Shown here in pieces: positions 7,392 to 10,213 of a stretch of 43,223 bases of DNA (positions within the stretch are counted from its first letter, which is position 1; each line of letters starts with the position of its first letter). The translations under genes and the position numbers were made by a program. The stretch is from an uncultured Alphaproteobacteria bacterium. GTDB taxonomy: Bacteria; Pseudomonadota; Alphaproteobacteria; Rs-D84. The stretch covers positions 1 to 43,223 of the forward strand of contig CALCEG010000010.1 in the NCBI GenBank assembly GCA_937900435.1. Direction: 5' to 3'. The notes under the pieces are model-generated. The model saw nothing but the letters and a program-made list of their open reading frames with translations, searched no databases and was not told the DNA's origin.

Positions 7392-10213
7392 AGAAAACCC
7401 TGATTGCATTTTTGTGTACATTTATTGCGTTACCTGCGGTGGCTGATAACTATATCAAATTCAAGGCATCTGCAATCGAAGATACGATAAATACAATGGT
7501 GCCAGAATCACATCGCGTAGCCGCGGCTGATGAATATCAAAAACAGATGGATTCAACCACCGGTAAAATATCTGTTATGGGCATTTACAAAGTTTGTGCG
7601 GCCGCTGGCTTCAATATAAATAACACAAATGGATATAACGGTTGTCGCCTGTTTATAAATACAATCGCAGAAAAATCTGGTTTTGGCTCTGGCAGCGCTA
7701 ACCAACAAAATTGTAAAACAAAATTCAGCGGTATTTGGAGTTTATCCTCCGATGGCAAACAATATCAATGTGTCGGCAAAGACGGCCATAAATTGGTATA
7801 TCACGCATCCTGTAACGGTGCGGGTGGCGATTGTATTCGGGATTTTTCATCCCTGCAAACCCAGGAACCAAATGCACGCGAATTTATACAGGCATACGGA
7901 CAACAAAAGAATTTACAATTTACATGTTGGTATACATTTGATGAATCGCGTTGGCAACTAGATAACCCAAAACCCCAAGATTACATAAAATGCAGTGCGG
8001 GTGGCAAGGCATACGAATTTGAATTTGACGATTTGATTCAGGACCCAGGTAAAACCGCGGTTGAATCTGAAAATACGACCCTGTGTGAAATGTTTGGTGG
8101 TAAAATTGTAAAACATCCAGACAGCAGTATTGAAAAACAATGGCAATCGTGCGAAGTATCAAGGGAAATTTGCAATGGCCCACTACATAATTTGGCAGTC
8201 AAAATCGGGCACAATGTAATGTACCAGGGATACTGCCGCCTGTCACGCACCGCAAAAGAAACATCGGTTGTTGGCCTAAAAACATTACCGGGTGTGGACA
8301 GTCGTGTGTTTTATAACACCGGTGCCCAAATGCGTGCCGGCATGGCAAAACAACAAACCGAAGAATATCTGCGCACAAAATTCCCAAATGAAACATATGT
8401 AAACTGTGACCCAAATCCAAAAATATTAAAAGAGGGCTTTGGAATTGACCGGGACTATGTCATGACCTGTACTGTTGGCAGCAAACAGGTTGATTTTATA
8501 TTCCATGACCTGACCGAAGGGAATGATGGACGTGCTGCAACCGGCATGGATGCAATGCAGTGTATAATCAGTGGTGGTACATTCAAGGGCGAATCCTGCC
8601 GTGGTCCAACCCAGGCAGAATGTAATGCCCTGGATGCTGCGTTACGTGCCAAGGGCTCGTCTGAGGGCGCAAAGTGGGATGACGATGTTCGGGCATGCAT
8701 CATGGGCAATGCAATGAAGACCTATAAACGCGATGTTGCAACGGGATATATTGTTGGTGCTGTGGTTATTATTGGTGGCACAATCGCGGTGATTGGTACA
8801 GGCGGTGCAGCGGCCCCTGCAATCATTGGTGGTGCAGAAATGCTGGTAACCGACCTGGCAATAAATTGGGCAATCGATGCGAACCACAGACGTTTGAGTC
8901 AAGGCGCAGCCACACGTTTTGTAAATTTTGTTGAAGATGCAGATAAATGCACCACCGAGGCCTGTGCCCTGAAAGTATTACAATCACATTATGCAACGTT
9001 ATCCGGTGTTATGAATGATTTGAATAAGGATGACCTGGCGGTGGTGGATGCAACAATGGAACGGCTGTTCGGGCTGATACAGACAGAATTTGTGGCATGT
9101 GGTAAAAATGACAAGGGGCAAACAGTCTATGCAAATCCGGCAGACTGTGCAATGCAACAATCGCATCTAAAAATTATGGATTATATCGACCCTGTGTCGG
9201 AACCTGTTTTGATAATAGGCAGTATTTTGTATAACCCCGGCTATGTGGCAAGCAAATTTATGAAAATGAAAAACGTCAGCAAATTGGCAAAATTAGATGA
9301 CTCAACAAGAATTACACGTGTTGTAAATCCTAAAAAAGCAAAAAATGTAGCAATTGGATTTATTGACGAATCCAAGTTTCTCAATAGAGATGTCAGCATC
9401 GAGGATTACATAGAAATCCTAAAAAAAGAAGGCTATAATGTCGAATTGCATTCAACCAATATAGGCATAAATCCAATGATAAGAGGTAGAGGTGAGGTAA
9501 GAACTTTTCAGATATCTAAATATACAGATGAAACGGATGTTGCTAAATTAGAATTGGATTTTATAAAAAATGCGTCAGATATAGATAAAAACTATAGACA
9601 AGGGTTCGTCGCACTAAAATATAACGATATTGTAAAAAACAACCCAGATAGTTGGTATAATACATACAAGACAATCTTGGAAGATTATTCATCAGAAGAT
9701 GCCGATATTGTGTATGCAAAAGAAAATTGGGGCAAAATGAGTGTTGAAGACAAGAAAAAATTTATTACAGAAACAAACCAAAAGTACCGCAATCTGATTT
9801 GTGAAAATCCAAAAGAATGTGTAATTAATTGGGATAAATCCAAAAGCATTGGCGGAGACGCCTCATATGACTCCCAAAGACTAGGAATAAATAAAAAATC
9901 AGAAAACGACATTGTTTCAGATGTATACAGTTATTCAACACCACAATCTAGCCCACGCAGACCGGATGAAGACTTTACAAAAACGTTACGAAATATTGTT
10001 CATGAAAATATTCATTACGGACAAGATGTTGGAAAAAGTGATATACCCACGTACTTACTTGAATATAATGACGAAAACTATATAAACCCAATGAATGTTC
10101 CCGAGTCACAAAAGTTTCTAGGCATTACTCCCGCATATAACTTACAACCCTTAGAAATTGAAGCAAAAGGCAGAGACGCTATGATTGTGACAGGAATATT
10201 AGAAAAAATGTAA
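7388..10213 (+). CDS. Large secreted/membrane Cys-rich modular protein with a C-terminal HExxH module
   Basis: The start is moved to the ATG at 7388 (MKKTLIAFLCTFIALPAVA signal peptide), which overlaps the upstream stop by 4 nt. Many Cys residues and an internal duplicated module. Hydrophobic glycine zipper GYIVGAVVIIGGTIAVIGTGGAAAPAIIGGA at nt 8738-8878. HENIH at nt 10001-10015. Confidence 0.75.
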   Translation: MKKTLIAFLCTFIALPAVADNYIKFKASAIEDTINTMVPESHRVAAADEYQKQMDSTTGKISVMGIYKVCAAAGFNINNTNGYNGCRLFINTIAEKSGFGSGSANQQNCKTKFSGIWSLSSDGKQYQCVGKDGHKLVYHASCNGAGGDCIRDFSSLQTQEPNAREFIQAYGQQKNLQFTCWYTFDESRWQLDNPKPQDYIKCSAGGKAYEFEFDDLIQDPGKTAVESENTTLCEMFGGKIVKHPDSSIEKQWQSCEVSREICNGPLHNLAVKIGHNVMYQGYCRLSRTAKETSVVGLKTLPGVDSRVFYNTGAQMRAGMAKQQTEEYLRTKFPNETYVNCDPNPKILKEGFGIDRDYVMTCTVGSKQVDFIFHDLTEGNDGRAATGMDAMQCIISGGTFKGESCRGPTQAECNALDAALRAKGSSEGAKWDDDVRACIMGNAMKTYKRDVATGYIVGAVVIIGGTIAVIGTGGAAAPAIIGGAEMLVTDLAINWAIDANHRRLSQGAATRFVNFVEDADKCTTEACALKVLQSHYATLSGVMNDLNKDDLAVVDATMERLFGLIQTEFVACGKNDKGQTVYANPADCAMQQSHLKIMDYIDPVSEPVLIIGSILYNPGYVASKFMKMKNVSKLAKLDDSTRITRVVNPKKAKNVAIGFIDESKFLNRDVSIEDYIEILKKEGYNVELHSTNIGINPMIRGRGEVRTFQISKYTDETDVAKLELDFIKNASDIDKNYRQGFVALKYNDIVKNNPDSWYNTYKTILEDYSSEDADIVYAKENWGKMSVEDKKKFITETNQKYRNLICENPKECVINWDKSKSIGGDASYDSQRLGINKKSENDIVSDVYSYSTPQSSPRRPDEDFTKTLRNIVHENIHYGQDVGKSDIPTYLLEYNDENYINPMNVPESQKFLGITPAYNLQPLEIEAKGRDAMIVTGILEKM

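What the first reader, a model, noticed from the sequence alone, without database searches (positions are those of the whole stretch)
9260..10213. Sharp base-composition drop inside the 941-aa gene, coinciding with an HExxH-bearing C-terminal module and no downstream partner ORF
Hand counts on 60-nt lines give about 45% GC at 9001-9060 but about 33% at 9241-9300 and 9601-9660. The last 310 or so codons therefore look compositionally foreign to the rest of the ORF. This module contains VHENIHYGQ (HExxH at 10001-10015) and a downstream PLEIEAKG. It could be a zincin-type peptidase or toxin domain grafted by recombination, as happens at polymorphic-toxin C-termini. The 330 bp after the stop encode nothing and consist of short direct repeats, so there is no obvious immunity gene. 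That absence would fit a target outside the producer, such as a eukaryotic host, or a non-toxic enzyme.
Basis: partly seen in the sequence, partly recalled or inferred. Interest (0 to 1): 0.6.

Follow-up and report, generated by a model that had tools for sequence, protein, structure and literature searches.

The report
Swappable zinc-protease cassette on secreted carrier
The last third of this 941-residue exported protein from a small-genome gut bacterium (Candidatus Enterousia) is an exchangeable cassette encoding a previously unclassified zinc-protease-like domain, swapped in by recombination at a fixed junction, and it lacks the protective immunity gene that normally accompanies bacterial polymorphic toxins.

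Summary
GC falls from 0.44 (7388-9300) to 0.33 (9301-10210), HENIH lies at 10001-15, and no ORF follows the stop. Related loci prove a graft. They share about 91% DNA identity from about 6400 to exactly 9300 (after ...KLAKLDD), none across 9301-10217, then 89% again. Window 10218-10268 still encodes the last 14 codons and stop of the displaced module type. The 118 relatives' C-terminal tails (119 relatives found) fall into at least 9 single-linkage clusters. About half carry diverged versions of the same HExxH domain, and some carry a Zeta-toxin kinase. Across 17 versions (down to 9% identity) the only invariant columns are H872, E873, H876 and E923, the pattern of a glutamate-liganded zincin. 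AlphaFold gives a confident model (pLDDT 90). Pfam, NCBIfam, PHROGs and PDB give no significant match. One correction: the cassette's GC is close to the window's average, and the carrier and its coupled 309-aa partner gene are the GC-rich outliers. HExxH-type loci mostly lack a downstream immunity gene. Best reading: a lineage-specific polymorphic effector system with interchangeable enzymatic heads, here a likely active metallopeptidase aimed at non-self cells. Delivery route, substrate and toxicity are untested.

The parts
6462..7391 (+). Partner gene, 309 aa. It has a signal peptide, a coiled coil and four Gly/Ala/Thr-rich (glycine-zipper-like) stretches. Its stop overlaps the start of the next gene (ATGA).
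   Evidence: ORF. It precedes the carrier in nearly every related locus (L037 has a different 191-aa ORF upstream). It is 76% identical in the P0116 locus although that carrier is only about 25% identical. It gives 8 hits on at least 5 other contigs in the own genome. No family match above threshold.
7388..9301 (+). Conserved carrier part of the 941-aa gene (residues 1-638). It comprises a signal peptide (residues 1-19), a Cys-rich region with an internal repeat (18 Cys in residues 70-437), a 47-residue hydrophobic stretch and a helical region with 4 more Cys. It ends in KLAKLDD (9281-9301).
   Evidence: 86-94% protein identity (about 91% DNA) to the closest relatives whose C-termini differ. 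17 invariant Cys among 29 invariant columns. AlphaFold pLDDT is 80-95 for residues 20-440, with no PDB fold match. The superfamily is present in 137 of 301 species of the order.
8732..8872 (+). Hydrophobic Gly/Ala-rich stretch, residues 449-495, with a TGG turn in the middle. It is a candidate helical hairpin that anchors in or inserts into a membrane.
   Evidence: It is the only Kyte-Doolittle peak apart from the signal peptide. Its pLDDT is below 50. Conserved Cys lie on both sides of it.
9302..10213 (+). Exchangeable C-terminal cassette (residues 639-941 plus TAA). In order it contains a ferredoxin-like alpha/beta subdomain, a helical bundle, a three-stranded sheet, the HExxH helix and the Glu helix.
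   Evidence: Homology to L002, L004 and L006 is lost here. The module is shared at 53-66% with proteins whose carriers are 21-28% identical or unrelated. AlphaFold pLDDT 89.8, pTM 0.87.
10001..10015 (+). These are the proposed two zinc ligands and the catalytic base.
   Evidence: Invariant in module family A1 and in superfamily alignment A3. They lie in helix 220-241 of the model, just after a three-stranded sheet.
10136..10156 (+). Y917...Q920-P-L-E923. E923 is the proposed third zinc ligand.
   Evidence: E923 is invariant and Y917 nearly invariant in A3. Y, Q and E are conserved in A1.
10218..10268 (+). Fossil of the displaced module. It reads IRMDRDVGLRILDMLE followed by TGA, which is the last 14 codons and stop of the P0004/P0008/P0011-type cassette.
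   Evidence: Translation. Aligned to the end of the L004 gene. blastx gives 93% identity to P0008 residues 883-897 of 897.
10269..10545 (+). Conserved non-coding 3' flank with TTTGTAA x4 (10306-10352). It is the probable 3' homology arm for cassette exchange.
   Evidence: 89% identical to L004 and L002, whereas the flanking genes are 64-75% identical. Repeats. No ORF. Single copy in the own genome.
10543..10567 (.). First copy of the last 19-25 nt of tRNA-Met. It marks the right end of the segment shared with other species; in L004 this position is the tRNA itself.

Best explanation
The 941-aa gene belongs to a polymorphic effector family specific to Candidatus Enterousia and its order (Rs-D84, gut Alphaproteobacteria with reduced genomes).

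A conserved module is exchanged between species as a unit. It comprises a Sec-exported 309-aa glycine-zipper partner, the translationally coupled 638-residue Cys-rich carrier with a hydrophobic hairpin, and a conserved 3' untranslated flank. Between the junction motif KLAKLDD and that flank sits an interchangeable cassette.

Shown: the cassette here (9302 to about 10217) replaced an earlier, unrelated cassette, by crossover at or next to the junction motif on the 5' side and within the last codons of the old cassette on the 3' side.

Inferred from invariant residues and model topology: the present cassette encodes a new, sequence-orphan glutamate-type zincin domain. H872 and H876 would bind zinc, E873 would be the catalytic base and E923 the third ligand, so it is probably an active metallopeptidase.

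Inferred from architecture only: the carrier exports the enzyme, displays it, and possibly inserts it through a target membrane by means of the hydrophobic hairpin. HExxH cassettes carry no immunity gene. The target is therefore more likely a molecule of another cell (a host or neighbouring microbe of this predicted obligate symbiont or parasite) than one the producer itself possesses.
For: Cassette swap.

Module on unrelated or distant carriers: P0116 and P0117 have carriers 24-28% identical but modules 53-57% identical. P0130 and P0126 have no detectable carrier similarity. P0134 is a stand-alone 296-aa protein.

Rarity of this module: 17 clusters among 1.84 billion representatives and 9 of 301 species of the order. 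The carrier is in 137 of 301.

Catalytic signature.

Model: pLDDT 89.8, with three strands, then the HExxH helix, then a later helix bearing E923. There are weak but thematically consistent fold hits to IrrE-like and SprT-like predicted viral zincins (probability 0.90, E 0.11) and sub-threshold Tox-MPTase2 and SprT-like hits for a sister cassette.

Toxin context: alternative cassettes carry Zeta_toxin/AAA_33 and are then followed 22 nt later by a 180-aa ORF.

No immunity ORF: here, in L002, L003 and L004, and in 5 of 7 further HExxH loci.

Export: signal peptide, 22 Cys in the mature carrier, 17 of them invariant.

Operon exchanged between species: third-position identity is 0.72-0.85 against 0.51 for gyrB.

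Lifestyle: PMC12306168.
Against: No significant match to any peptidase family or solved structure. 'Zincin' therefore rests on four invariant residues and secondary-structure order, and I could not inspect the model's coordinates to check ligand geometry.

No evidence of secretion beyond the inner membrane, of a delivery machine, or of toxicity.

The absence of an immunity gene departs from the defining pattern of polymorphic toxins.

Topology is unsettled. The K-rich stretch after the weakly hydrophobic segment 608-630 would also fit a cytoplasmic C-terminus.

Two of seven HExxH loci do have a small ORF right after the gene (98 aa in L034, 149 aa in L037).

Confidence: 0.65

Rival explanations
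1. A membrane receptor with a variable cytoplasmic output. The Cys-rich part would sense something in the periplasm. The C-terminal zincin would stay inside the producer and cleave one of its own proteins, in the way ImmA/IrrE proteases cleave repressors. No immunity gene would then be needed.
For: The best (weak) fold hits are IrrE-like proteins. A Lys-rich stretch follows the segment at residues 608-630. There is no immunity gene.
Against: Alleles at one locus swap wholly unrelated enzymatic domains, including Zeta-toxin kinases. This is typical of effectors and not of signalling outputs. Cys521 and Cys526 are invariant, and two more Cys follow the hydrophobic stretch; this suggests that side is also oxidising, although a cytoplasmic metal-binding site would fit as well. 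Segment 608-630 contains NPG or DPG and scores below a transmembrane threshold. The module also occurs on unrelated N-termini and alone.
Confidence: 0.15
2. The zincin is not the payload but a processing or maturation peptidase, or an inactive scaffold. It would release or activate the carrier or the partner, like the pre-toxin peptidase domains of other polymorphic toxins.
For: About half of all tails carry a version of the same domain. P0124 has two such modules in tandem. No immunity gene is needed for a self-processing enzyme.
Against: The domain occupies the extreme C-terminus, the payload position. It alternates there with a Zeta-toxin domain and with other unrelated modules. It is highly diversified (down to 9% identity) except for the catalytic residues, as expected for an enzyme under arms-race pressure rather than one with a fixed internal substrate.
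Confidence: 0.12
3. The GC step is only an amino-acid composition effect (a Lys/Asn/Ile/Tyr-rich domain) in a vertically inherited gene, with no recombination.
For: GC1 and GC2 also fall. The decline begins 100-170 nt before the junction, inside conserved sequence. Every cassette type has lower GC than the carrier.
Against: The homology breakpoints are sharp on both sides, and a fossil of the earlier cassette remains. GC3 also drops, from 0.39 to 0.27.
Confidence: 0.03

Closest known systems
Neisseria MafA/MafB polymorphic toxin loci (from my knowledge: Jamet et al. 2015)
   Same: A two-gene core in which an exported accessory protein is encoded directly upstream of a signal-peptide-bearing toxin. 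The toxin has a conserved N-terminal part and a variable C-terminal domain, and the C-termini are replaced by recombination.
   Different: There is no sequence relationship: no Pfam hit to the MafB N-terminal (DUF1020) family or to any other family. The partner here is not a lipoprotein. No immunity genes or orphan cassette arrays follow the HExxH-type genes.
CdiA-CT and Rhs-CT polymorphic toxins (from my knowledge: Zhang, de Souza, Anantharaman, Iyer and Aravind 2012)
   Same: A short conserved junction motif sits before the variable domain (KLAKLDD here; VENN and PxxxxDPxGL there). Displaced 3' fragments are left behind the active gene. The same toxin domain is found on different carriers.
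   Different: Those systems use two-partner secretion or T6SS and always carry a cognate immunity gene. Here the route is Sec plus an unknown step, immunity is absent, and the displaced fragment is only 14 codons long.
Glutamate-type zincins with a minimal core, such as the ImmA/IrrE (M78) and SprT-like families, and the Tox-MPTase domains of polymorphic toxins
   Same: HExxH lies on a helix that follows a small beta-sheet, and a Glu on a later helix serves as the candidate third ligand.
   Different: No family reaches significance by sequence or by fold. The spacing between HExxH and the Glu is 47 residues here and up to about 135 in sister cassettes. Family-specific extras are HENxHxxQ and YxxQPxE, plus an N-terminal ferredoxin-like subdomain and a helical-bundle subdomain.

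Membership tests
Polymorphic toxin systems | A conserved N-terminal trafficking part joined to alternative, unrelated C-terminal domains in close relatives | tested here: met
   119 relatives were found. The closest carriers are 86-94% identical over residues 1 to about 636 yet carry different tails, and the 118 tails form at least 9 single-linkage clusters.
Polymorphic toxin systems | Cassette replacement by recombination at a fixed junction, with remnants of displaced modules | tested here: met
   Breakpoints lie at 9301-9303 and about 10217. A fossil of the previous module's last 14 codons lies at 10218-10268.
Polymorphic toxin systems | Known toxin domains among the alternative C-termini | tested here: met
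   Zeta_toxin (PF06414) with AAA_33 in P0014, P0020, P0027, P0045, P0047 and P0080. All other types tested have no Pfam match.
Polymorphic toxin systems | A cognate immunity gene immediately downstream of the toxin gene | tested here: not met
   There is no ORF of 20 aa or more on the + strand in 10214-10491. None in L002, L003 or L004. None in 5 of 7 further HExxH loci. A candidate is seen for the Zeta type (180 aa) and in L034 and L037.
Polymorphic toxin systems | Toxicity to a target cell and delivery by a secretion system | not testable with these tools
   The organism is uncultured. No secretion-system gene lies next to the operon in the window.
Zincin metallopeptidases (glutamate-type) | HExxH motif with both His and the Glu conserved across homologues | tested here: met
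   Invariant in A1 (15 sequences) and in A3 (17 sequences, down to 9% identity).
Zincin metallopeptidases (glutamate-type) | A third zinc ligand (Glu) on a helix downstream of the HExxH helix | tested here: inconclusive
   E923 is the only other invariant column and lies in a short helix of the model.
Zincin metallopeptidases (glutamate-type) | Zincin fold: a mixed beta-sheet whose edge strand precedes the active-site helix | tested here: inconclusive
   The model has strands 171-176, 186-189 and 205-210, then helix 220-241 bearing HExxH. Foldseek finds no hit with E below 0.001 in PDB or BFVD; the best thematic hit is an IrrE-like protein (probability 0.90, E 0.11).
Any curated peptidase or toxin family (Pfam, NCBIfam, PHROGs; PDB by sequence) | A score above the family threshold | tested here: not met
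   The best results are sub-threshold: BSP 0.019, Tox-MPTase2 0.049, SprT-like 0.15.
Zincin metallopeptidases (glutamate-type) | Zinc binding and peptide-bond hydrolysis | not testable with these tools
   This needs biochemistry.

The most novel reading that the evidence does not exclude
The partner, the Cys-rich carrier and the cassette together form a previously undescribed, immunity-free delivery system of the genome-reduced Rs-D84 Alphaproteobacteria. After Sec export, the multi-copy glycine-zipper partner and the carrier's hydrophobic hairpin would form or cross a membrane. They would hand interchangeable enzymes (new zincins, Zeta kinases and at least six unclassified domain types) into the host or partner cells on which these obligate symbionts depend. 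Cassettes, and whole operons, would circulate horizontally among species next to a tRNA-Met integration hotspot.
Probability: 0.3. Interest if true: 0.8.

Novelty: new variant of a known kind. Interest (0 to 1): 0.62.

Why it matters
Candidatus Enterousia and its order are widespread gut bacteria with genomes of about 1 Mb. They are predicted to live off other cells (PMC12306168), but nothing is known about how they interact with those cells. This locus gives a concrete candidate interaction system:

- a lineage-wide family present in 137 of 301 species, with up to 5 copies per genome;
- exchangeable enzymatic heads;
- carrier, partner and most cassettes absent from every curated family library, the Zeta-toxin cassettes being the exception.

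It adds a new glutamate-type zincin superfamily defined by four invariant residues. It also provides a clean natural example of cassette replacement, with both junctions and a fossil preserved. The consistent lack of immunity genes separates it from classical inter-bacterial polymorphic toxins and points to non-kin targets. That makes the biology of these uncultured symbionts experimentally approachable through heterologous expression of the cassettes.

Tried and rejected
- Sequence family searches of the whole protein, the module family, sister cassettes and other cassette types against Pfam, NCBIfam and PHROGs found nothing above threshold.
- PDB sequence searches with the protein and with two profiles found nothing.
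- Foldseek of both AlphaFold models against PDB, and of the module against BFVD, gave no hit with E below 0.001.
- An exhaustive HMMER search of 1.84 billion representatives with the module gave only 17 clusters, none annotated.
- Two index-based searches, one with the module region and one with superfamily profile A3, added almost nothing.
- A search for silent or orphan HExxH cassettes in the own genome found none. It found only a stand-alone homologue of a different cassette type on contig C185.
- A search for remnants of carrier or cassette sequence upstream of the operon found none.
- The 3' flank is not a repeated element in the own genome.
- Rfam finds only the three tRNAs in the window.
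- No + strand intrinsic terminator was found after the gene.
- Literature searches for Enterousia, and for Rs-D84 with toxin, found no description of this family.
- I considered a metzincin or aspzincin assignment and rejected it, because positions +8 and +11 after the first His are Q and G, not G and H/D.
- I considered that the region left of the tRNA-Met is a prophage, but no integrase or phage module was seen in the window's ORF list.
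Full report
**What is there.** The ORF 7388-10213 (+) encodes 941 residues (P0001). An upstream ATG at 7370 would add six residues. I number from the Met at 7388, which overlaps the stop of the preceding 309-aa gene (ATGA). The window averages about 37% GC. Relatives found in the protein searches are named as alphaproteobacterial MAGs, including Candidatus Enterousia. 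The window's own assembly is 1.17 Mb in 187 contigs. Enterousia belongs to the uncultured order Rs-D84. Its members have genomes of about 1 Mb and are predicted to be obligate symbionts or parasites (PMC12306168).

**The observation.** The GC step is real. 200-nt windows give 0.45-0.55 at 8400-9100 and 0.29-0.36 from 9200 onward. By segment:

| Segment | GC | GC3 |
|---|---|---|
| Residues 1-637 (7388-9300) | 0.439 | 0.39 |
| Rest of the gene (9301-10210) | 0.332 | 0.27 |
| 21 other ORFs of the window | 0.376 ± 0.036 | 0.31 |
| Upstream partner gene | 0.448 | 0.395 |

The C-terminal third is close to background, and the carrier part and the partner gene are the GC-rich outliers. The same step (carrier 0.44-0.46, cassette 0.35-0.41) occurs in every related locus I measured, including a distant one. 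HENIH is at 10001-10015 and PLEIEAKG follows it. No + strand ORF of 20 aa or more lies in 10214-10491. TTTGTAA occurs four times at 10306-10352, three of them 10 bp apart.

**Proof of a graft.** A database search found 119 relatives. Most match only the first 67-68% of the query, at up to 94% identity, and their lengths range from about 850 to 1235 aa. The conserved part always ends near ...NPGYVxxKFMKxKxxSKLAKLDD. The 118 tails behind it fall into at least 9 single-linkage clusters.

At the DNA level, three loci with different tails (L002, L004, L006) are 90-91% identical to the window from 6356-6434 up to exactly 9300 (9240 for L006). Homology is then lost. It resumes at 10223 (L004) or 10290 (L002) at 89% and runs to about 10566. 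In L004 the resumed homology begins inside its own gene. Window 10218-10265 translates to IRMDRDVGLRILDMLE followed by TGA. This is the last 14 codons and stop of the P0004/P0008/P0011-type module (blastx 93% to P0008 residues 883-897 of 897). The present cassette, 9302 to about 10217 with its own TAA, therefore displaced an unrelated cassette and left a 50-nt fossil.

The 5' breakpoint abuts the conserved junction motif. The 3' homology resumes at different points in different loci, either inside the old cassette's last codons or in the conserved 3' flank. This fits a reading, not shown here, in which that flank serves as the 3' homology arm.

**Where the module came from.** Apart from a 98% identical strain (P0002), its relatives are:

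- P0121 (66%);
- P0116 and P0117 (53-57%);
- a set at 30-44% identity;
- P0130 and P0126, whose N-termini have no detectable carrier similarity;
- P0134, a stand-alone 296-aa protein.

Where the relatives sit on carriers, those carriers are only 21-28% identical to this one. An exhaustive search of 1.84 billion representatives found only 17 clusters. Among 301 species of the order, 9 have a match and 3 of those are strong. The carrier is present in 137 of the 301, in 9 of 29 genera, with 1-5 copies and ORFs of 575-2559 aa. The module is thus a rare, mobile domain that was moved onto this carrier lineage.

**What the module is.** No curated family or solved structure matches it by sequence. Roughly half of all tails nevertheless carry an HExxH 70-100 residues from the end, and they align around it. 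In the module family (A1, 15 sequences) the invariant residues include H, E, N, H, Q and G of HENxHxxQxxG and Y and Q of YxxQPxE; that E (E923) is conserved in at least 90% of them.

Superfamily alignment A3 has 17 sequences, down to 9% identity to this one. Its only invariant columns are H872, E873, H876 and E923, and Y917 is nearly invariant. By established knowledge of zincins, this is the pattern of a glutamate-liganded zinc peptidase: two His ligands, the catalytic Glu and a distal Glu ligand.

AlphaFold2 with A1 gives pLDDT 89.8 and pTM 0.87. In module numbering, the order of elements is:

- a beta-alpha-beta-beta-alpha subdomain (13-88);
- a helical bundle (95-165);
- three strands (171-210);
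- a long helix (220-241) carrying HExxH;
- short helices carrying Y, Q and E (276-285).

Foldseek finds nothing with E below 0.001 in PDB or BFVD. The only thematically consistent hits are IrrE-N-terminal-like and SprT-like predicted phage proteins (probability up to 0.90, E 0.11). A sister cassette gives sub-threshold Tox-MPTase2 and SprT-like hits. I therefore call it a new zincin-like family. I rate catalytic activity as likely, about 0.7, and it is unproven.

**The carrier and partner.** The carrier has:

- a signal peptide;
- 22 Cys in the mature part, 17 of them invariant;
- an internal repeat (DY..C..G.K..F.F.DL);
- one 47-residue Gly/Ala-rich hydrophobic stretch (449-495) with a central TGG;
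- four more Cys after that stretch, of which C521 and C526 are invariant.

Conserved Cys on both sides of the hydrophobic stretch favour a hairpin with both flanks outside the cytoplasm. This is inference. The carrier model is good for residues 20-440 and has no fold match.

The 309-aa partner has a signal peptide, a coiled coil and several glycine-zipper-like stretches. It precedes the carrier in nearly every locus read (L037 has a different 191-aa ORF upstream). It is 76% identical even next to a carrier of about 25% identity. It gives 8 hits on at least 5 other contigs in this 1.17-Mb genome. Two carrier paralogues also exist.

**Horizontal exchange of the whole operon.** Between the window and L002 or L004, identity at third positions of conserved four-fold codons is:

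| Gene | Third-position identity |
|---|---|
| gyrB | 0.51 |
| UDG | 0.46 |
| PagL | 0.30 |
| Partner | 0.72-0.85 |
| Carrier | 0.77-0.80 |

The operon and its 3' flank are therefore much younger than the divergence of the surrounding chromosome. The shared segment ends at the first copy of the tRNA-Met 3' end (10543-10567), which in L004 is the tRNA itself.

**Immunity.** The Zeta-toxin-type cassette is followed 22 nt later by a 180-aa ORF and then an HD-domain gene. HExxH-type and P0011-type cassettes are not followed by any ORF in L002, L003 or L004, nor here. Of seven further HExxH loci taken from species genomes, five have no same-strand ORF after the gene. Two have a small one (98 aa and 149 aa). 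Lack of immunity is thus a property of this cassette class. It argues for a target the producer lacks or cannot be exposed to, or for a non-toxic role.

**Verdict.** The thing is a new variant of a known kind: a polymorphic-toxin-like effector system. Its carrier, its partner and most of its cassettes, including this zincin, are uncharacterised, and it breaks the toxin-immunity rule. What remains unknown is the delivery route, the target, the substrate and whether the gene is expressed.

Noticed in passing
window 10543-10567, 10716-10740, 10886-10910; L001 9315-10396: Three copies of the last 19-25 nt of tRNA-Met lie about 170 bp apart, each next to a terminator-like hairpin. The 98% identical strain (L001) has an extra 1.08 kb with a 236-aa Cys/His-rich ORF (P0137) inserted between window positions 10699 and 10709.
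   Followed up: partly
own genome contigs C136 (two places), C155, C54, C133, C22 (loci L015-L021): The 309-aa partner belongs to a multi-copy family, with 8 hits at 38-68% identity in a 1.17-Mb genome. One copy has an internal TAA.
   Followed up: partly
own genome C11:213-2273 in L009; C139 in L010: There are two carrier paralogues (28-30% identity over the central part). One is 686 aa with almost no effector tail. The other is at least 779 aa, with a Pro/Ala/Val-rich linker and a different C-terminal domain that resembles the end of P0129.
   Followed up: partly
window 6356-10566 versus L002 and L004: The partner gene, the carrier and the 3' flank are about 90% identical between species whose gyrB, UDG and PagL are 64-82% identical. 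Third-position identity is 0.72-0.85 against 0.30-0.51. The whole operon appears to be exchanged horizontally next to tRNA-Met.
   Followed up: yes
L002 4874-5022: In L002 a second copy of the 3'-flank element (like window 10295-10441, with the TTTGTAA repeats) sits directly upstream of the partner gene, so that operon is bracketed by direct repeats of about 150 bp. The window has no such upstream copy.
   Followed up: partly
own genome contig C185 (2092 bp): A stand-alone ORF of about 600 aa is 25% identical to the P0087-type cassette tails and is not fused to a carrier. The contig ends in tRNA-like sequence.
   Followed up: partly
P0124 (1520 aa): One relative carries two zincin modules in tandem on one carrier: HENKH at about residue 885 and HETSH near the C-terminus.
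   Followed up: no
window 6150-6312: A startless reading frame ending ...ILKKMYDVMKNSQKTE* lies between the tail-fibre-like gene and the partner gene. It has no similarity to any carrier or cassette.
   Followed up: partly
L006 9064-10153: The Zeta-toxin-type cassette is followed by a 180-aa ORF (P0138) and then a 180-aa HD-domain ORF. They are candidates for an antitoxin or an accessory pair.
   Followed up: no
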